Assembly: GCA_013298765.1 (NCBI GenBank)
Contig: JAAFJA010000007.1
Coordinates: 1-64,000, forward strand
Source of the DNA: Betaproteobacteria bacterium
GTDB taxonomy: Bacteria; Pseudomonadota; Gammaproteobacteria; Burkholderiales; Casimicrobiaceae
Reading direction: 5' to 3'
DNA: 64,000 bases
The notes beneath the pieces are model-generated. The model was not told the origin of the DNA. It saw only the letters and a program-made list of their open reading frames with translations, and made no database searches. The translations under genes were made by a program, and so were the position numbers. Position 1 is the first letter of the stretch. The number at the start of each line of letters is the position of its first letter. This document shows positions 56,568 through 64,000 of the stretch, piece by piece.

Positions 56568-57137
56568 ATGAATATCCTGTATCTACACGGTTTTCGCTCG
56601 TCGCCGCAATCGATGAAGGCGCGATTAATGGCCGCGCATTTCGCGACGACGGAGCACCGTTTCATTTGCCCGCAACTACCCGCGAGCCCCGCCGCGGCAA
56701 TCGAACTCGCGAGTGACTTCATCGAAGATCGAGGCGATCCCCAAAAGGATTGGGCGTTAATCGGCTCATCGCTCGGTGGCTTCTACGCCGCTTTCTTGGC
56801 GGAAAAATATGGCAGCCGCGCGGCACTACTCAATCCGGCCGTGTTCCCCGCCGACGATCTCGCGGGCTATGTGGGCGAACTCACGATGTATCACTCGAAC
56901 GATCCATTCGAATGGAAAGCAAACTATTTGCACGAACTCGAATCGTTACGCGTCGCACAAATTACGAAGCCCGAACGCTACTTTTTGCTCGCCGCCACTG
57001 GCGACGAAGTGCTCGATTGGCAAATGATGCGCGATCACTACGCGGGCGCGGAGCAGGTGATCATTCAGGGCAGCGATCATGCGATTAGTGAGTTTGAGCG
57101 ATACATTACTCGAGTGGCGGCTTTTTGCATCGTGTGA
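56568..57137 (+). CDS. YqiA-family esterase (UPF0227, alpha/beta hydrolase)
   Basis: The N-terminus is MNILYLHGFRSSPQS and the nucleophile motif is GSSLGG. It is about 189 aa. Confidence 0.75.
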   Translation: MNILYLHGFRSSPQSMKARLMAAHFATTEHRFICPQLPASPAAAIELASDFIEDRGDPQKDWALIGSSLGGFYAAFLAEKYGSRAALLNPAVFPADDLAGYVGELTMYHSNDPFEWKANYLHELESLRVAQITKPERYFLLAATGDEVLDWQMMRDHYAGAEQVIIQGSDHAISEFERYITRVAAFCIV

Positions 57138-57948
57138 TTCGTGGCAGACCCGCCAAATCGTGAATCATTTCAACATCGGCGAATCCCGCTTCACGAAATA
57201 GCGCTGGCACCGATTCGCCTTGATCGTAGCCGTGTTCAACAATCAGCACACCGCCTTCGCGTAAGCGCGCTTTCGCACCGCTTAAAAGTTCGCGATAACT
57301 CTCTAACCCATCAACGCGATCACGCAGCGCGAGCCACGGTTCGAAACGCAGATCGCCTTTGAACAAATGCGGATCGTTCGGAGGGATGTAGGGCGGATTG
57401 CTCACAATCACGTCGAAGGTTCGATTCGAATCGATTGCTGAAAACCAATCGCTTTCGATGAATTCGACGTTGGTTGCTCCGAGCGCGTTCGCGTTTTCGC
57501 GCGCGAGAGTGAGCGCATCGCGCGAGAGGTCGCACGCGGTCACGCGAGCGTTGTCAATTTCGAGCGCGAGCGTAATGGCGATACACCCCGTACCAGTGCC
57601 GACGTCGAGGATGCTTGGCTCTCTGTCTTCCCCGAGCAAGCGAGGATCGTCGCGCAACAAATCGATGAGCAACTCTGTTTCTGGTCGCGGAATCAACGCG
57701 GCGGGCGTGCACTTGAAGTTGCGACCATAAAACTCGCGCACGCCAAGGATGTAGGCGATCGGCTCGCCTGCGGTGCGGCGTGCAGCAGCAATTCGCAGAT
57801 GATTTTCTTCAGTCGGCGTGAGCTCGTAATCGTCGTGCGCCGCGAGCCATGCTGCGTTTTGTGCGAGCACGTGCGAAAGCAACAAGCGGAGCTCCGCGCG
57901 AGGTAGGGAATCGGAAACCAGCTGGGCGATGGATTGGCGAATGTTCAA
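57106..57948 (-). CDS. prmC: release factor glutamine N5-methyltransferase
   Basis: 280 aa with the NPPY motif (VSNPPYIP) and the SAM motif (ILDVGTGTGCIAI). Confidence 0.9.
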   Translation of the reverse strand: MNIRQSIAQLVSDSLPRAELRLLLSHVLAQNAAWLAAHDDYELTPTEENHLRIAAARRTAGEPIAYILGVREFYGRNFKCTPAALIPRPETELLIDLLRDDPRLLGEDREPSILDVGTGTGCIAITLALEIDNARVTACDLSRDALTLARENANALGATNVEFIESDWFSAIDSNRTFDVIVSNPPYIPPNDPHLFKGDLRFEPWLALRDRVDGLESYRELLSGAKARLREGGVLIVEHGYDQGESVPALFREAGFADVEMIHDLAGLPRITRCKKPPLE

Positions 57949-58130: not shown

Positions 58131-58943
58131 TTAAGCGACGCTTGCGCCGTCTGCAATCATCTGTTCGACAGCGCCGCGCGCTGCGTGCGCGAAATCGTCG
58201 CCGTTCGATGCGTAGAGCACGGAGCGCGACGCGCTGATCATGAGCCCTGCGCCATTGCCTGCGCGGCCGGCAGCGACCGAAGCGGCAACATCGCCGCCCT
58301 GCGCGCCAACACCGGGTACGAGTAGCGGCATATCGCCGACGACTGCGCGCACATCGGCAATCACTTTCGGCACGGTCGCACCGACCACGAGCGAGACATT
58401 GTTGTTCGCGTTCCACTTCGTTGCGGCAAGGCGCGCGACTTTCATGTAGAGCGGTTCGCCATCGATCAAAAGTTCTTGCAAATCCGCAGCGCCGGGGTTC
58501 GATGTGCGGCACAAAAGAATCGTGCCGCGATCGGCGTACTTCGTGAATGGCTCAATCGCATCCGTTCCAAGGTAGGGGCTCACCGTTACCGCGTCTGCCT
58601 TGAAGCGATCAAAGGCTTCCTGCGCGAGATACATCGCCGTGTTACCCATATCGCCACGCTTTGCGTCCAGAATCACCGGCACGCTCGGATAGCGATCGTG
58701 AATGTAATCAATGATCGCGGCGAGCTGATCGTACGCACCGAGCGCCGCATGATGTGCGAACTGCGGCTTGTATGCGCAGACGATGTCGTGCGTCGCGTCC
58801 ACAATCGCTTTGTGAAATGCAAACACACCATCAGGCCGCTCACGAAAACGCGCAGGCAGTTTTGGCATCTCGGGATCAAGACCGACGCAAACCAGTGAGC
58901 GAGATTTGCGCCAAGCCACGTTTAGTTTTTCGGTGAAAGTCAT
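58131..58943 (-). CDS. pyrF: orotidine 5'-phosphate decarboxylase, type 2
   Basis: 270 aa with the motifs [22 protein letters not shown] and [12 protein letters not shown], typical of long-form PyrF. Confidence 0.8.
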
Positions 58944-60025
58944 ACCGTCGCCCCTTCCATGCTCGCCATTTGTTCTGCCTGATGTTCGCTGCGCAACGCA
59001 TCGACCATATCGCCGATGTCGCCGTCCATAATCATGTCGAGCTTGTAGAGCGTCAAATTAATGCGGTGATCAGTCATGCGGCCTTGCGGATAGTTGTAGG
59101 TACGAATGCGCTCGCTCCGGTCGCCGCTGCCGACGAGTGATTTGCGCAGTCCTGCTTCTTTCGCATGCGCGGCCTCGCGCTCGCGCTCAAGCAGGCGCGA
59201 GGCGAGCACTTCCATCGCACGCGCCTTGTTCGAGTGCTGCGAACGACCATCCTGGCATTCAACGGTTACGCCGGTTGGAATGTGAACGATGCGCACTGCC
59301 GAATCGGTCTTGTTGATGTGCTGACCGCCCGCACCGCTCGCGCGGAACGTATCGATGCGCAAATCCGACGGATTGATCGTGATGTCTTTCACCGGATCGG
59401 CTTCCGGCAGGATCGCCACCGTGCAGGCGCTCGTGTGGATGCGGCCCTGCGCTTCGGTTTCCGGCACGCGTTGCACGCGATGCGTGCCCGATTCAAACTT
59501 GAATTTCGAATACGCACCTTGTCCGCTGACGCGCGCGATCACTTCTCGATAGCCACCAAGCTCGCTCTCGTTGGCGGAAACGATTTCCACTTGGTAGCGC
59601 TGACGCTCTGCAAAGCGTGTGTACATGCGAAGTAAATCGCCTGCGAAAATCGCGGATTCGTCGCCGCCTGTACCCGCGCGAATCTCCAAAAAGATGTTGC
59701 GTTCGTCGCTTGGATCTTTCGGCAGCAGCGCAATCGTCAGTTCTTTGTCGATTGCATCGATCGCTTCTTTCGCGCTCGCGATTTCTTCTTGCGCCATCTC
59801 CTTCATCTCGGGATCGGCGAGCATTTCTTGCGCAGTCGCGAGATCGTCTTCGCGGGCCTTGAACTGCTTAAACAGCTCCGCCACTGGCTCCAAATCACTG
59901 CGCTCTTTCGACAACGCACGATAGCGGTTCATATCGTTCACCACCGTCGGATCGGCGAGCAAAGACTCCACCTCGACCAAGCGGCGTTCGAGTTGCTCGA
60001 GTTTGATACGGAAACTGTCTTTCAT
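58940..60025 (-). CDS. prfA: peptide chain release factor 1
   Basis: 361 aa with the GGQ motif ([18 protein letters not shown]) and the PxT tripeptide anticodon region. Confidence 0.95.
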
Positions 60026-60031
60026 GTTGCT

Positions 60032-60454
60032 TTATTTTTCTGTATTTGATTCTGGGGCTAGCCAGTTTTCAATTTGCAGCGCGGGAACGCGCATGAACTC
60101 ACTCTCGTTATTGGTGATGAGCGTGAGTCCTTCGCTGCGTGCGTGCGCTGCGATATGCAGATCATTGACGCCGATGGGCGTACCGGCCCGCTCTAGCGAG
60201 GCTCTGATCGCGCCGTAGTGCGCTGACGCTTTCGCGCCGTACGGCAAGACTTCAAGCCGGCTACAAAAATCTTCAACGATCGAGAGATTTGTGTTCCTGC
60301 GTTCGCTTTTCTCCGCGCCGTGTATGAGCTCCGCCAGCGTAATCGATGAGATTGCCATTCGTCCCGCGTTCTCATTAAAGCGAACACGCGCGACCTCGGG
60401 GCGCTTTTTGATGACATAGATCACGATATTCGTGTCCAGAAGGTAGCGCAGCAT
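60032..60454 (-). CDS. vapC: type II toxin VapC (PIN-domain ribonuclease)
   Basis: 140 aa. The N-terminus MLRYLLDTNIVIY carries the first PIN Asp. Other acidic residues are conserved. Confidence 0.85.
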   Translation of the reverse strand: MLRYLLDTNIVIYVIKKRPEVARVRFNENAGRMAISSITLAELIHGAEKSERRNTNLSIVEDFCSRLEVLPYGAKASAHYGAIRASLERAGTPIGVNDLHIAAHARSEGLTLITNNESEFMRVPALQIENWLAPESNTEK

Positions 60455-60460
60455 AGGCAG

Positions 60461-60694
60461 CTACAGCGTGTCGCGGTCAGCTTGCGTCTGCAATGCGCGC
60501 GTATCCATGAAGTCATCGCTGACTGTCTCAGTGGCCGAGAAAAAGCTATCCCACGACGCACCAGCGGGCGCAATGATTCGCTCAACGCCGCGCGCGCGCA
60601 CGTCCACATGCTTCACGCCCTCCGGCATGCGAAGCTCCGCCGGCAGGCGAACCGCTTGTGTGCGGTTGTTGGTGAAGATTGTGCTGGTGGTCAT
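60461..60694 (-). CDS. vapB: type II antitoxin VapB (AbrB/SpoVT-type swapped-hairpin)
   Basis: 77 aa with TNNRTQAVRLPAELRMPEGV. It lies immediately upstream of vapC with a 6-nt gap. Confidence 0.75.
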   Translation of the reverse strand: MTTSTIFTNNRTQAVRLPAELRMPEGVKHVDVRARGVERIIAPAGASWDSFFSATETVSDDFMDTRALQTQADRDTL

Positions 60695-60888
60695 TTCGAC
60701 GAGGGCGGAGATAAGAATGCTAAGTCGTATATGGCAATTGTATATTGCAGTCGTGTCGACAGTCTTGCGTGTAACGAACGTGTGCTTGCATTACCCGCAA
60801 AATAATCGCAAACTGTATCGCTCATTGATATATAAATTATTGAAAAACAACAAAAGATTCACAACATTTACTATGCGAATGCGCGTGA

Positions 60889-62220
60889 ATGAAACGAGCC
60901 ATAACCGACCTTCTAGCATCCGACGGCCCGCTCTCGGCACCAGAGGCGGCGCGACGCTTGGGCGTTGACCCGCTGACGATTGCGCGGCAAGCACGCGCGT
61001 CAGCGAGTCGTGTTCTTTCGCTTGGACGCGGCAAAAACACGCGCTATGCAGTGCCCGAGATCGTGGTCACTGGCGCGGCTCAATGGCCGCTCTTTTGGAT
61101 TGACGAGAACGGCCGTGTCACCGAATTCGCAACCGCGTCGTTCGTCAAGCCGCAAACCGTGCATGTGTATGGCAGCGGTATCAACGATGCGTCGCGCGGA
61201 GAGGTCCCGTGGTTTCTATTGCCGCTGATATTGCGCGGCTACCTTGGGCGCGCCGCGCGGTTTCGCTTGGGCGCTGTCGTTCAGTCGTGGGATAGTCACC
61301 CCGAGCGCTGGACGCTCGCGCAGCATGTTTTTGCAATGCAATCGTCCGCGCTTGAACATGCGGGAGCAATCCTCATGGGCGACGATGCGGTTAGCGCTTG
61401 GCAAGCGGCGCAGCAACAAAAGCCGTACCCCGATTCGCCGGAAGCGCTCGCGCAAACGTACGATGCGCTCGCGCATGACGCGATGTCGGGGCGCGTCGCG
61501 GGATCAAGTGCGGATGGGGAGCAGCCTAAATTCAGCACGCGTGTCGTCGATACTAATGGCAACATTCGCGAAGTGTTGGTTAAGTTCTCGCCCCCGCGCG
61601 GCACACCGTTTGGCGAACGTTGGAACGATTTGCTCCACGCCGAAGCAATCGCCGCCGACGTGTTACGTGACCATGGCTTCGCAGTCCCGAATACCCGAAT
61701 CATTCGCAGCGAAAAGCGCACCTATTTCGAATCGGTGCGCATCGATCGCATCGACGCAACTGGACGGCGACATCTGTTACCGCTTCATGCCGTTCACGCC
61801 GCATTTCTTCCAGGGTCGCAACAACACTGGGCTGCGACCGTTGCACAACTCGCCGCGCAAAAACGCATCACCTACCATGCGGTCGCTGCGACGCAAACGC
61901 TCTACGCTTTCGGACAACTCATCGGGAACACCGATATGCATTTCGGCAACTTAGGCATGATCGCCGAGTCGCCGCAGGAAATCGCAAAAGGGCGTTTCAA
62001 ACTCGCTCCGTGTTACGACATGCTGCCGATGCGGTTCGCGCCTGGGGCGCATAGCGATTTGGAGTACACGGCGTTTGGTGTGGAATTGAATGCAGCGTTG
62101 CCAGAGGGCGTCGCAAGCACTGCGCGCGCCATGGCAAAAGAATTTTGGCGGCGCGTTTCTGATGAAACACAAGTGAGCGCGAGCTGGCGCGAGTTCGCAC
62201 TTGGACGCGCTGCCGCTTAA
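60889..62220 (+). CDS. HipA-like Ser/Thr kinase with an N-terminal HTH domain (YjjJ/HipH-like toxin family)
   Basis: 443 aa. An N-terminal HTH-like region (SAPEAARRLGVDPLTIARQARA) precedes a HipA-like core with the catalytic-loop motif GNTDMHFGN. It is preceded by an AT-rich promoter region. Confidence 0.7.
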   Translation: MKRAITDLLASDGPLSAPEAARRLGVDPLTIARQARASASRVLSLGRGKNTRYAVPEIVVTGAAQWPLFWIDENGRVTEFATASFVKPQTVHVYGSGINDASRGEVPWFLLPLILRGYLGRAARFRLGAVVQSWDSHPERWTLAQHVFAMQSSALEHAGAILMGDDAVSAWQAAQQQKPYPDSPEALAQTYDALAHDAMSGRVAGSSADGEQPKFSTRVVDTNGNIREVLVKFSPPRGTPFGERWNDLLHAEAIAADVLRDHGFAVPNTRIIRSEKRTYFESVRIDRIDATGRRHLLPLHAVHAAFLPGSQQHWAATVAQLAAQKRITYHAVAATQTLYAFGQLIGNTDMHFGNLGMIAESPQEIAKGRFKLAPCYDMLPMRFAPGAHSDLEYTAFGVELNAALPEGVASTARAMAKEFWRRVSDETQVSASWREFALGRAAA

Positions 62221-64000
62221 GCCTTCGCAAACTCTGTCCGATGCGCAATCCATCGCGCTAGAAACGCTGCGCGATGGAATGCCGGGTCGTTATCGAGTTG
62301 ATTTGCGGCATTGCGCGCGGCTTCGACGAGGTCGATGTCTTCTTCGATGTTCGCGTAGCGAAGCCCCGGTACGCCGGACTGCCTTGGGCCAAGCAATTCG
62401 CCAGGGCCCCGAATGCGCAGATCTTCTCTGGCGATCACGAAGCCATCGGTGGTTTCGTAGATGACTTTGAGGCGTTGCTTGGCGGTGTCGGAGAGTTTGT
62501 CGGCGAAAAGCAGAATGCAAGTGGACGCCGCACTGCCGCGCCCCACGCGTCCGCGTAGCTGATGCAGTTGCGCAAGACCGAAGCGTTCCGCGTGTTCGAT
62601 CACCATCCAACTTGCGTTCGGTACATCGACGCCGACTTCGATGACGGTGGTCGATACGAGCACTTGTACCTTGTTTTCGATGAAGGCTTGCATGATTTCC
62701 GCCTTCTCTTCGGCTTTCATGCGACCGTGCAAGAGCGCGACCTTGACGTTCGGCATCGCTGTGACGAGCTCTGTGTAGAGCGCGGTTGCGTTTTGCAGCT
62801 CGATTTCCATTTTGTCGCTCTCTTCAATGAGCGGACAAACCCAATACGCTTGCGCGTCGGCTTGCGCGGCAGCGTAAATGCGTTCGGCAACCTCGCCGCG
62901 GCGTTTTTCGGAGACGAGTTTGGTGACGATCAGTTGTCGGCCGCTTGGGATTTCGTCGATGACTGAAACATCGAGGTCAGCGTAGTAGCTCATCGCGAGC
63001 GAGCGTGGAATGGGGGTGGCGCTCAGCATTAATGTGTGGGGGGCGAGTTGCTCCCTCCCGTTCAACAGGAGGGCGGGGGTGGGGATGGGGTTGTCTTCTG
63101 GCGCGTTAAACCGGACGCCAACTCCCTCACCCGCCCTTCGGGCACCCTCTCCCAGAGGGAGAGGGACGGTTTTCGAGCGCAATCGCAACCGCTGCTCCAC
63201 GCCAAATCGGTGCTGTTCATCTACGACCACCAAGCCCAATCTTGCAAACGACACTTTCTTCTGAAATAGCGCGTGCGTACCGATGGCGATCTGTGCTTCG
63301 CCTCGCTTGCACTTCTCCTGTGCGGCCTTGAGCTCCGCCGCGGTGAGCGAGCCGGCAAGCCAGGTGAGCTGCACGGGCAAATCTTTGAGCCAGTGCGAGA
63401 GCTTGCGAAAGTGCTGCTCGGCCAGCAGCTCTGTCGGGGCCATGAACGCGACCTGGTAGCCCGCCTCGACACAGGCGAGCGCCGCCAGCGCGGCGACGAT
63501 GGTTTTTCCGCTGCCTACATCGCCTTGAAGTAGGCGTGTCATCGGCACCTCGCGGGCGAGATCGCGCAGCACGTCGGCGACTGCGCGTTCCTGAGCGGCC
63601 GTGAGCGTGAACGGCAAACGCTGCATCATCAATGGTGTGATGAGCTGCGTGGGGCTGATCGATGGCGCGCGCTCGGCGGCGCGAAGCGTTTTCGCATCTT
63701 TGAGCGCGAGCTGTTGTGCGAGTAGCTCATCAAACTTGATACGCCGCCATGCGGGATGCGTTCGCGTTTCAAGCGCGGCAATCGCGTTCACATCGGTGGG
63801 CGCATGGAGCGCGGCAAGCGTCTCCCCCCACTGCAGCAGTTTCATTGAATCTCGCGCCGACGCTGGCAACAGTTCCGACTGCCACTCACGAACCTTGAGC
63901 GCTTTGCTCGCGAGCGTGCGCAATGCTGCCTGAGGAATTCCCGCAGTGGACGGGTAGACAGCCGTAAGCGCTTTCGAACCACTTAATTGGGGCTCAATCT
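62217..64000 (-). CDS. recG: ATP-dependent DNA helicase RecG, partial (N-terminus lies beyond the window end)
   Basis: Helicase motifs are conserved: GDVGSGKT (I), VVDEQHRFGV (II), SATPIPR (III) and the C-terminal QLRGRVGRG (VI). It carries an extra segment of about 35 aa between motifs II and III that derives from a REP element. Confidence 0.9.
   Translation of the reverse strand, partial: IEPQLSGSKALTAVYPSTAGIPQAALRTLASKALKVREWQSELLPASARDSMKLLQWGETLAALHAPTDVNAIAALETRTHPAWRRIKFDELLAQQLALKDAKTLRAAERAPSISPTQLITPLMMQRLPFTLTAAQERAVADVLRDLAREVPMTRLLQGDVGSGKTIVAALAALACVEAGYQVAFMAPTELLAEQHFRKLSHWLKDLPVQLTWLAGSLTAAELKAAQEKCKRGEAQIAIGTHALFQKKVSFARLGLVVVDEQHRFGVEQRLRLRSKTVPLPLGEGARRAGEGVGVRFNAPEDNPIPTPALLLNGREQLAPHTLMLSATPIPRSLAMSYYADLDVSVIDEIPSGRQLIVTKLVSEKRRGEVAERIYAAAQADAQAYWVCPLIEESDKMEIELQNATALYTELVTAMPNVKVALLHGRMKAEEKAEIMQAFIENKVQVLVSTTVIEVGVDVPNASWMVIEHAERFGLAQLHQLRGRVGRGSAASTCILLFADKLSDTAKQRLKVIYETTDGFVIAREDLRIRGPGELLGPRQSGVPGLRYANIEEDIDLVEAARNAANQLDNDPAFHRAAFLARWIAHRTEFAKA
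63045..63175. repeat. REP-like GC-rich palindromic element embedded in-frame within recG
   Basis: It reads ctccctcccgttcaacaggagggcgggggtggggatgggg...ccctctcccagagggagagggac. On the minus strand it translates to ...TVPLPLGEGARRAGEGVGVRFNAPEDNPIPTPALLLNGREQ... inside RecG. Confidence 0.7.

What the first reader, a model, noticed from the sequence alone, without database searches (positions are those of the whole stretch)
60032..62220. Toxin-antitoxin islet (vapBC plus an HTH-fused HipA-like kinase) inserted between prfA and recG
The vapB-vapC pair (AbrB-type antitoxin, PIN toxin) lies immediately downstream of prfA on the same strand. An AT-rich stretch of about 190 bp (60700-60890) is followed by a 443-aa HipA-family kinase with an N-terminal HTH (YjjJ/HipH-like single-chain architecture). 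The AT-rich flanks and the interruption of the conserved prfA/prmC/recG neighbourhood suggest horizontally acquired addiction or persistence modules.
Basis: partly seen in the sequence, partly recalled or inferred. Interest (0 to 1): 0.5.

Follow-up and report, generated by a model that had tools for sequence, protein, structure and literature searches.

The report
vapBC and HipH genes beside prfA
Two ordinary, already-known kinds of bacterial "toxin" genes (a VapBC toxin-antitoxin pair and a solitary HipH kinase) sit in a gene-swapping hotspot between recG and prfA; the only unusual point is that the VapBC pair has taken the place of the regulatory leader that relatives carry in front of the essential prfA gene.

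Summary
The three genes are real and at the stated coordinates. vapB is at 60461-60694 (-) and vapC at 60032-60454 (-). VapC matches the tRNA(fMet)-specific VapC family above NCBIfam cut-offs and keeps all four catalytic acidic residues. The third gene is a 443-aa HipH/YjjJ-type kinase at 60889-62220 (+), with a winged-HTH N-terminus and intact kinase motifs.

Two corrections. vapBC lies upstream of prfA in the direction of transcription, 6 bp from its ATG, not downstream. Only the 194-bp divergent promoter region is AT-rich; the genes have host-like GC and GC3.

Synteny in about 25 Casimicrobium-like relatives shows a family-specific recG>prfA>pyrF>prmC backbone. The recG-prfA gap is a cargo hotspot: empty, hipH, this vapBC, a second PIN pair, higBA, or other genes. 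vapBC is patchy and shows signs of moving by recombination. hipH sits at this site in every relative with 61% identity or more, so it is an old resident, not a recent insert.

Relatives carry a conserved prfA leader: a 3-codon mini-ORF ending in UAG that overlaps a terminator hairpin. This window, L001 and L014 lack it, and prfA is probably transcribed from the vapBC promoter here (inferred).

Verdict: new members of known kinds, modest interest.

The parts
60032..60454 (-). vapC: PIN-domain toxin of the tRNA(fMet)-specific VapC family (140 aa). The last ~9 aa (LAPESNTEK) extend beyond the canonical ...ENW C-terminus.
   Evidence: Pfam PIN E=3.1e-22. NF047863 and NF010285 above cut-off. E=1.6e-41 to Salmonella VapC 6IFC over residues 1-131, with D7, E42, D98 and E119 aligned and kept. 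72.7% identity to a vapC on a Limnohabitans plasmid and ~55% to enterobacterial plasmid vapC.
60461..60694 (-). vapB: AbrB/SpoVT-type antitoxin (77 aa), 6 nt upstream of vapC.
   Evidence: NF040493 TA_anti_VapB 97.5 bits, cut-off 60. Pfam MazE_antitoxin 23.1 bits, cut-off 24.7. E=1.6e-17 to VapB 6IFM_B.
60026..60031 (-). 6-nt spacer between the vapC stop and the prfA ATG. There is no room for a promoter, terminator or the prfA leader that relatives carry.
   Evidence: Sequence. The same 6-nt junction occurs in L001 and in the L018 vapC-prfA' remnant. The hairpin of the leader has no match anywhere in the window.
60727..60756 (-). Operator-like tandem ATATAC repeats, 13 bp apart, 33-62 nt upstream of the vapB ATG. 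Candidate VapB(C) binding site overlapping the vapBC promoter.
   Evidence: Direct-repeat family D1. It is the only block conserved upstream of vapB in all 5 loci that carry this vapBC; the rest of each upstream region does not align. Binding is inferred by analogy with vapO1/vapO2 of Salmonella (PMC3378870).
60695..60888 (.). Divergent vapB/hipH intergenic region, AT-rich (39.7% GC). Presumed to hold both promoters.
   Evidence: Composition. One sigma-70-like match on the minus strand at 60864-60836, TTGTGA-17-AATAAT; this is a consensus match only.
60889..62220 (+). hipH (yjjJ)-like gene: a single-chain HipA-family Ser/Thr kinase of 443 aa with no adjacent antitoxin gene. Winged HTH at aa 1-55 (nt 60889-61053). 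Gly-rich loop G205-S206-S207-ADGEQPKF (nt 61501-61533). Catalytic motif GNTD349MH351FGN354 (nt 61924-61950). Mg-binding Y376-D377 (nt 62014-62019).
   Evidence: HipA_C E=1.2e-18. NF007297 YjjJ E=4e-106, below cut-off. 35% identity to E. coli K-12 HipH over residues 5-437. Motifs conserved in 16 homologues and 48 homologues. AlphaFold model pLDDT 90.8 with H-H-H-beta-beta at the N-terminus. Best PDB folds are HipA 4PU5 and 3DNT, probability 1.0.
58940..60025 (-). prfA (RF1), the backbone gene immediately downstream of vapC. Followed by pyrF (58131-58943, 4-bp overlap with prfA) and prmC (57106-57948).
   Evidence: Pfam PCRF and RF-1, OMPdecase, and PrmC_N plus MTS. Synteny.
62217..64000 (-). 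recG (3' part; runs off the window end), the backbone gene convergent with hipH. Their stop codons overlap.
   Evidence: Pfam DEAD, Helicase_C and RecG_dom3_C. Open frame to the window end.

Best explanation
The region holds two independent, intact members of known toxin families, lodged in a lineage-specific variable slot between recG and prfA.

(1) vapBC is a type II toxin-antitoxin operon. By homology, VapC is a PIN endonuclease that cleaves initiator tRNA(fMet) in the anticodon loop. VapB is an AbrB-type antitoxin that neutralises VapC. Together with VapC it would repress its own promoter through the conserved ATATAC repeats, and derepression would follow when Lon degrades VapB. This module is mobile within the family. 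It probably spreads by homologous recombination through the conserved flanks.

(2) hipH is a monocistronic HipA-family Ser/Thr kinase with its DNA-binding winged HTH fused in cis. It probably autophosphorylates on the two serines of the Gly-rich loop and phosphorylates translation-related targets. It is an old, mostly vertically inherited resident of this site, not a recent insert.

(3) In this genome, and in L001 and L014, vapBC occupies the place of the conserved prfA leader. With a 6-nt spacer and no terminator, prfA (and probably pyrF and prmC) is most likely co-transcribed from the autoregulated vapBC promoter.

Shown: gene identities, motif conservation, and the synteny pattern. Inferred: the biochemical activities, operator binding, and co-transcription.
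For: Identities and intact active sites.

Hotspot: among 23 places with both recG and prfA, 4 are empty (151-203 bp), 9 carry hipH and 4 carry this vapBC (plus L014, whose recG side is not on the contig). Seven (plus L014) carry a second PIN + antitoxin pair on the other strand, 1 carries higBA, and others carry an FAD oxidase, an ankyrin protein or an exonuclease.

vapBC mobility:
- It is present in three separate backbone clades.
- WIN and L001 share one contiguous 1731-nt prfA+vapBC tract at 90.1% DNA identity, while the flanks are 71-82%.
- L018 carries vapBC, the same 6-nt spacer and a 129-bp prfA 5' remnant, followed by hipH, the leader and a full prfA. The vapC-prfA junction therefore travelled as a unit.
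- More than 5000 plasmid records encode homologues.

hipH residency:
- It has the same position and orientation in L003, L006, L018, L030, L082, L084, L085 and L087 (61-79% identity), a divergence similar to RecG (71-90%) and PrmC (55-90%).
- 7 of 8 members of the window's backbone clade carry it.
- More distant homologues (56% identity or less) sit in unrelated contexts, each without a neighbouring hipB/hipS-type gene.

Leader loss: 21 of 26 family loci have the leader, while WIN, L001 and L014 (vapBC abutting prfA) do not. L007 has vapBC and still keeps the leader.

Mechanistic background: PMC3378870 (VapBC autoregulation and Lon), PMC9948734 (HipH kinase, autophosphorylation at S200/S201), PMC8262856 (HipH clade X, N-terminal HTH, monocistronic).
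Against: - No transcript data exist. A promoter for prfA inside vapC cannot be excluded, because the consensus scan is crude.
- The HipH-like protein scores below NCBIfam's YjjJ equivalog cut-off (355 against 401 bits) and is only 35% identical to E. coli HipH. Its substrates may differ.
- The backbone itself is mosaic. For example, PyrF falls into about 75% and 88-95% identity classes that do not follow RecG or PrmC. The NJ tree is therefore only a rough guide to vertical versus horizontal history, and the HipH tree is not fully congruent with it.
- vapBC at similar divergence to its neighbours (73-96%) is also compatible with ancient presence plus repeated loss.
Confidence: 0.75

Rival explanations
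1. One reading: both vapBC and the hipH-like gene are recently acquired addiction or persistence modules that interrupted a conserved prfA/prmC/recG neighbourhood.
For: The gap is variable and four relatives have it empty. vapBC is patchy and its family is abundant on plasmids. The intergenic piece is AT-rich.
Against: - hipH is at the same site in 9 family genomes across two or three clades, with divergence like the flanking genes.
- GC and GC3 of all three genes are host-like.
- No integrase, tRNA, transposase or flanking direct repeats lie next to the genes.
- The recG-prfA neighbourhood is not conserved outside this family.
Confidence: 0.2
2. Both modules were present in the family ancestor at this site, and today's pattern is due only to differential loss. 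No horizontal movement is involved.
For: Position is the same in several loci, and identities to the window (VapB/VapC 73-96%, HipH 61-79%) lie in the range of the backbone proteins.
Against: - L018 has a different gene order (recG-vapBC-prfA'-hipH-prfA) with a 129-bp prfA remnant fused to vapC by the same 6-nt spacer. This requires a recombination or insertion event.
- vapBC abuts prfA without the leader in three separate clades, while sister genomes keep the leader.
- The backbone identities are mosaic, showing frequent recombination here.
Confidence: 0.15
3. The hipH-like gene is not a toxin at all. It is a domesticated housekeeping signalling kinase or transcription regulator, so 'TA islet' is a misnomer for that half.
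For: - It has no cognate antitoxin gene, shows long-term vertical residence and has host-like composition.
- In E. coli, HipH is chromosomal and monocistronic, phosphorylates RpmE and CsrA, and does not raise antibiotic tolerance (PMC9948734).
Against: - E. coli HipH is growth-inhibitory when overproduced (PMC9948734, PMC8262856).
- A second report assigns E. coli HipH a DNase-type toxicity controlled by c-di-GMP (PMC11452175).
- The gene has been lost repeatedly in relatives, as accessory genes are.
Confidence: 0.3

Closest known systems
Enterobacterial and leptospiral VapBC (Salmonella LT2 VapBC, Shigella pMYSH6000 MvpAT/VapBC; PDB 6IFC, 6IFM, 3TND): tRNA(fMet)-specific PIN toxin with an AbrB-type antitoxin
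   Same: - Same two-gene order and size.
- About 55% identity to plasmid VapC.
- Full-length match, E about 1e-41.
- D7, E42, D98 and E119 kept.
- AbrB-type VapB, E about 1e-17.
- Repeat motif in the promoter region, comparable to vapO1/vapO2 (PMC3378870).
   Different: - It is chromosomal, in a Casimicrobium-like betaproteobacterium.
- VapC has a 9-aa C-terminal tail and ends 6 nt before the essential prfA gene, so the module heads a probable vapB-vapC-prfA(-pyrF-prmC) transcription unit.
- The operator repeats here are direct ATATAC repeats, whereas inverted repeats are described for Salmonella.
E. coli K-12 HipH (YjjJ, b4385): clade X of the Hip kinase tree (Gerdes et al. 2021, PMC8262856)
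   Same: - Identical length (443 aa).
- Colinear alignment over residues 5-437.
- N-terminal HTH and the GSSAxGEQPKF Gly-rich loop, with the two serines that are autophosphorylated in E. coli (S200/S201; PMC9948734).
- Catalytic and Mg-binding motifs conserved.
- Monocistronic, with no linked hipB or hipS.
   Different: - Only 35% identical, and below NCBIfam's equivalog cut-off.
- It belongs to a distinct betaproteobacterial subclade that is fixed next to prfA/recG in one family.
- Its substrates, toxicity and any c-di-GMP control are untested.
Chromosomal 'TA/defence hotspots' between conserved core genes (variable integration spots flanked by housekeeping genes)
   Same: Conserved flanks (recG, prfA) with alternative cargos in different genomes, several of them TA pairs: this vapBC, a second PIN pair and higBA.
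   Different: - The slot is small (0.15-3.2 kb).
- No integrase or tRNA gene was seen.
- Turnover seems to occur by homologous recombination through the flanks.
- No PADLOC defence-system match above noise.

Membership tests
tRNA(fMet)-specific VapC (PIN toxin, NCBIfam NF047863 / NF010285) | PIN domain and a whole-protein score above the curated family cut-off | tested here: met
   PIN E=3.1e-22. 161.5 bits (cut-off 140) and 159.1 bits (cut-off 143).
tRNA(fMet)-specific VapC (PIN toxin, NCBIfam NF047863 / NF010285) | Four conserved acidic active-site residues (D7, E42, D98, E119 in Salmonella/Shigella numbering) | tested here: met
   All four are aligned and identical in the phmmer alignment to 6IFC_A.
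tRNA(fMet)-specific VapC (PIN toxin, NCBIfam NF047863 / NF010285) | Cognate AbrB-type VapB antitoxin gene immediately upstream in the same operon | tested here: met
   vapB ends 6 nt before vapC. NF040493 97.5 bits. 6IFM_B E=1.6e-17.
tRNA(fMet)-specific VapC (PIN toxin, NCBIfam NF047863 / NF010285) | Site-specific cleavage of initiator tRNA, and neutralisation by VapB | not testable with these tools
   Requires in vitro cleavage and toxicity-rescue assays.
HipH / YjjJ (Hip kinase clade X) | HipA_C core kinase domain with the Gly-rich loop, catalytic DxHxxN motif and Mg-binding D | tested here: met
   HipA_C E=1.2e-18. GSSADGEQPKF, NTDMHFGN and YDMLP are conserved with E. coli HipH and 15 relatives, and D349, N354 and D377 are invariant in 48 sequences. 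HipA fold, probability 1.0.
HipH / YjjJ (Hip kinase clade X) | N-terminal extension of about 100 aa containing an HTH (the 'H' of HipH) | tested here: met
   The model shows helices at 2-12, 17-24 and 28-37 and strands at 43-45 and 52-54, with pLDDT generally about 89-96. It aligns with E. coli HipH from residue 4/5. Pfam HTH_20 gives only a weak hit, E=0.0031. DNA binding was not tested.
HipH / YjjJ (Hip kinase clade X) | Monocistronic: no adjacent hipB, hipS or other antitoxin gene | tested here: met
   The neighbours are divergent vapB and convergent recG. The same holds for 8 orthologous loci and 3 distant homologues.
HipH / YjjJ (Hip kinase clade X) | Score above NCBIfam's equivalog cut-off for YjjJ (NF007297) | tested here: not met
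   355.4 bits against a cut-off of 401, although the match is end to end (4-437 of the protein, 6-428 of the 446-position profile). It is therefore a HipH-type kinase of a more distant subclade, not an equivalog of E. coli YjjJ.
HipH / YjjJ (Hip kinase clade X) | Ser/Thr kinase activity, autophosphorylation, and growth inhibition on overproduction | not testable with these tools
   Known only for E. coli HipH (PMC9948734).
Horizontally acquired genomic islet | Atypical composition, mobility genes or flanking repeats; absence from close relatives at the same site | tested here: inconclusive
   Composition is host-like, and no integrase, tRNA or flanking repeats were seen. Absence from relatives is met for vapBC (patchy) but not for hipH.

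The most novel reading that the evidence does not exclude
In this family, prfA is normally preceded by a short conserved leader. It consists of a -10-like box, a probably leaderless 3-codon mini-ORF (AUG-NNN-NNN-UAG) and a terminator hairpin. The UAG is the stop codon read only by RF1, and it overlaps the 5' arm of the hairpin. This layout would let a ribosome waiting for RF1 block termination and so raise prfA transcription, which would be an RF1-sensing attenuator.

In the window (and in L001 and L014), the vapBC module has replaced this leader and abuts prfA. RF1 supply, and probably pyrF and prmC, would then be driven by the VapBC-autoregulated promoter. That would couple release-factor expression to the state of a toxin that destroys initiator tRNA, and it would make the TA promoter indispensable.
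Probability: 0.3. Interest if true: 0.65.

Novelty: new member of a known kind. Interest (0 to 1): 0.3.

Why it matters
As given, the finding adds two more examples to very large, well-described families, so little changes.

Three things are worth keeping.

1. It is a clean natural example of a small chromosomal slot between two core genes that exchanges TA cargo by recombination. One leftover junction (L018) documents a transfer.
2. HipH-type kinases, usually listed as toxins, can be stable, vertically inherited residents. This bears on whether they are addiction modules at all.
3. The insertion shows, by its absence here, a conserved prfA leader in relatives that looks like an RF1-sensing attenuator. 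If confirmed, that would be an RF1 counterpart to the classical RF2 frameshift autoregulation, and the window genome would be a natural 'leader-replaced' variant for comparison.

Tried and rejected
- Looked for signs of an integrative element around the islet (flanking direct or inverted repeats, terminators). Only short chance-level repeats turned up, apart from the ATATAC operator-like pair.
- Looked for pseudogene remnants of hipH, vapBC or higBA in relatives lacking them. None were found at E<=1e-3.
- PADLOC defence models: no meaningful hit.
- Rfam on the prfA leader of L004: only chance miRNA hits.
- Asked whether the leader hairpin is a generic repeated terminator or REP element. It occurs once per locus, always before prfA, and is absent from the 64-kb window. 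In metagenomes, 38 of 47 matches to the bare hairpin pattern are unrelated terminators not followed by prfA within 700 nt, and 31 of those 38 lack a mini-ORF.
- Two full-text searches for an RF1/prfA leader attenuator returned nothing relevant. The library is incomplete, so this is not proof of novelty.
- I first suspected that recG was interrupted near the window end. It simply runs off the window.
- Phmmer against PDB sequences found only weak HipT hits for the kinase. The fold search was needed to link it to HipA.
Full report
**1. What is there**

The ORF list and sequence show these genes on the minus strand, in order of transcription:
- recG, from beyond the window end down to 62217
- vapB, 60694-60461 (77 aa)
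- vapC, 60454-60032 (140 aa)
- prfA, 60025-58940
- pyrF, 58943-58131
- prmC, 57948-57106

A 443-aa ORF lies on the plus strand at 60889-62220, between recG and vapB.

VapC is a PIN protein (E=3.1e-22). It passes the curated cut-offs of both NCBIfam models for the tRNA(fMet)-specific VapC (161.5 bits against 140; 159.1 against 143). It aligns end to end with the solved Salmonella and Shigella toxins (6IFC, 3TND; E about 1e-41), with D7, E42, D98 and E119 in place.

VapB is the matching AbrB-type antitoxin (NF040493, 97.5 bits against 60; 6IFM_B, E=1.6e-17).

The plus-strand protein has these properties:
- It carries a HipA_C domain (E=1.2e-18).
- It matches the YjjJ/HipH model over its whole length, but below the equivalog cut-off (355 against 401 bits).
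- It is 35% identical and colinear with E. coli K-12 HipH, which has the same length.
- It keeps the Gly-rich loop with its two serines (GSSADGEQPKF), the catalytic NTDMHFGN motif and the Mg-binding YDMLP motif.
- An AlphaFold model built on 48 homologues is confident (pLDDT 90.8). It shows a three-helix, two-strand winged-HTH at residues 1-55 followed by a HipA-like body.
- The best PDB folds are HipA of Shewanella and E. coli, probability 1.0.

**2. Corrections to the description**

- vapBC is upstream of prfA in the transcription sense. Only 6 nt separate the vapC stop from the prfA ATG.
- The single AT-rich segment is the 194-bp divergent vapB/hipH intergenic region (39.7% GC). The 200-bp window starting at 60701 has the lowest GC of the 638 windows in the 64-kb window.
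- The three genes themselves have GC and GC3 values like their neighbours.
- hipH and recG converge, and their stop codons overlap (TTAA at 62217-62220).
- No integrase, tRNA or meaningful flanking repeats are present.

**3. Synteny**

A scan of one genome per species with PrfA returned 80 loci. The top 20 or so are MAGs labelled Casimicrobium, Burkholderiales or Betaproteobacteria, with 80-97% PrfA identity. The rest are Massilia, Pseudoduganella and others at about 67%.

tblastn with the window's proteins shows that recG>prfA>pyrF>prmC is a backbone of the Casimicrobium-like group only. In the other Burkholderiales, none of recG, vapBC or hipH lies within 10 kb of prfA.

Within the group, the recG-prfA gap varies:
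- Empty, 151-203 bp: L004, L009, L016, L020.
- hipH: the window, L003, L006, L018, L030, L082, L084, L085, L087.
- This vapBC: the window, L001, L007, L014, L018.
- A different PIN gene with a small antitoxin-like gene on the opposite strand: L005, L007, L010-L012, L014, L015, L019.
- higBA: L003.
- Assorted other genes: an FAD-binding oxidase, an ankyrin-repeat protein and an RNase T-like exonuclease.

The slot is a real cargo hotspot, rich in TA pairs.

**4. History of the two modules**

hipH:
- It is in the same position and orientation (divergent from prfA) in every family member that has it.
- Its identity to the window protein (61-79%) is similar to that of RecG (71-90%) and PrmC (55-90%).
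- 7 of 8 genomes in the window's backbone clade carry it.
- Homologues with 56% identity or less lie in unrelated contexts, again without a neighbouring antitoxin-type gene.

This fits long residence with occasional loss and some allele exchange.

vapBC behaves differently:
- It occurs in three separate backbone clades.
- The window and L001 share a contiguous prfA+vapBC tract at 90.1% DNA identity, while their flanks are 71-82%.
- L018 has recG-vapB-vapC, the same 6-nt spacer and a 129-bp prfA 5' fragment. It then continues with hipH, a leader and a complete prfA. The vapC-prfA junction has evidently been moved as a unit by recombination.
- The family is abundant on plasmids: more than 5000 records, with the best hit at 72.7% in a Limnohabitans plasmid and about 55% to the IncF-type enterobacterial vapBC.

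The backbone is itself mosaic. For example, PyrF falls into two identity classes that do not track RecG or PrmC. Tree-based statements are therefore approximate.

**5. Consequence for prfA**

Aligning the sequence upstream of prfA shows that 21 of 26 family loci share a conserved leader of about 110 nt. Reading towards prfA, it has:
- a -10-like TAAAAT/TAGAAT/TAACAT box
- 7-8 nt
- ATG-NNN-NNN-TAG
- a 59-76 nt hairpin with an invariant basal stem AGCCACGC/GCGTGGCT (dG -24 to -39 kcal/mol)
- a U-run
- usually about 15 nt (up to 83 nt in a few loci), then the prfA ATG

The ATG and TAG are invariant. The two inner codons vary freely (nine and four different codons), and the A and G of the TAG form the first two pairs of the stem.

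Other facts about the leader:
- It occurs once per locus, only before prfA.
- It has no Rfam family.
- It is found in ten more metagenome contigs. All nine of those with enough downstream sequence continue into prfA. Of the 38 matches to the bare hairpin pattern with no prfA within the 700 nt downstream, 31 have no mini-ORF.
- It persists whether the upstream neighbour is recG (same direction), hipH or the second PIN pair (both divergent). It therefore belongs to prfA rather than being simply the recG terminator.

UAG is read only by RF1, so the arrangement suggests an RF1-sensing attenuator. This is an inference. I found no description of it in two literature searches.

The window has no such element anywhere. 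Together with L001 and L014, it has vapBC abutting prfA instead. L007 shows the intermediate state, with vapBC upstream of an intact leader.

With 6 nt between the genes and no terminator, the simplest reading is that prfA here is transcribed from the vapBC promoter. In Salmonella, that promoter is repressed by VapB-VapC through operators overlapping -10/-35. It is derepressed when Lon degrades VapB during translation stress (PMC3378870). Upstream of vapB, the only block conserved among the five vapBC-bearing loci is a pair of ATATAC repeats 13 bp apart (window 60727-60756). This is a plausible operator.

**6. Mechanism, and what is shown versus inferred**

Shown:
- family membership by curated models
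- intact catalytic residues
- fold
- gene order
- the synteny pattern
- loss of the leader

Inferred from characterised homologues:
- VapC cuts initiator tRNA, and VapB neutralises it and autoregulates the operon.
[quoted passage not shown] In E. coli these are S200/S201, and the substrates are RpmE and CsrA (PMC9948734).
- Its HTH may act as a cis regulator or antitoxin (PMC8262856).
- A separate report assigns E. coli HipH a DNase activity held in check by c-di-GMP (PMC11452175). Nothing here tests that.

Co-transcription of prfA with vapBC is inference only.

**7. Verdict**

'Recently acquired' fits vapBC but not hipH. The compositional argument fails.

Both modules would be named correctly by routine annotation. 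They are new members of known kinds, and interest in the finding as stated is modest (0.3).

The more novel material is peripheral. It comprises the displaced prfA leader, its possible role as an RF1 sensor, and the resulting vapBC-prfA fusion in this genome.

Noticed in passing
Relatives, not the window: e.g. L004:9895-10003, L016:5460-5564, L010:9895-10003, L082:5745-5850 (-). Metagenome examples: L107, L110, L114, L123, L125, L129, L135.: A conserved prfA leader. It has a -10-like TAnnAT box, 7-8 nt, an invariant ATG-NNN-NNN-TAG mini-ORF whose UAG (the RF1-only stop codon) overlaps the 5' arm of a 59-76 nt terminator hairpin, a U-run, and usually about 15 nt to the prfA ATG. It is a candidate RF1-sensing transcription attenuator. 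No Rfam family matched and no paper was found. It is absent from the window, L001 and L014, where vapBC abuts prfA.
   Followed up: partly
L018:3097-3240: A 129-bp 5' fragment of prfA is fused to vapC by the same 6-nt spacer as in the window. It is followed by hipH, a leader and a full prfA. This is a relic of a recombination that moved the vapBC-prfA junction.
   Followed up: yes
window 63054-63173 (-), inside recG: An in-frame insertion of about 111-120 nt in recG encodes ...PLPLGEGARRAGEGVGVRFNAPEDNPIPTPALLLNGRE... It contains the GC-rich palindrome CCCTCTCCCTCTGGGAGAGGG. It is present in the window, L001 and L082 and absent in L003, L084 and L085. It looks like a REP/MITE-like element tolerated inside the helicase. 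It is the only copy of the palindrome in the window.
   Followed up: partly
window 58131-58943 (pyrF) and relatives: pyrF sits between prfA and prmC, overlapping the prfA stop by 4 bp. This is a family-specific arrangement. PyrF identities to the window fall into two classes (about 75% and 88-95%) that do not follow RecG or PrmC identities, which indicates mosaic recombination across the backbone.
   Followed up: partly
L010:8959-9724 (-), also L005, L007, L011, L012, L014, L015, L019: A second, unrelated PIN toxin (about 170-190 aa) with a 79-aa antitoxin-like partner (weak DUF6364 hit) occupies the same recG-prfA slot on the opposite strand in eight relatives. L003 carries higBA there.
   Followed up: partly
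window 62217-62220 and 62245-62282: hipH and recG converge with overlapping stop codons (TTAA). A 14-nt inverted repeat, 93% complementary, lies 25 nt past the hipH stop inside the recG coding sequence. It may serve as the hipH terminator.
   Followed up: no
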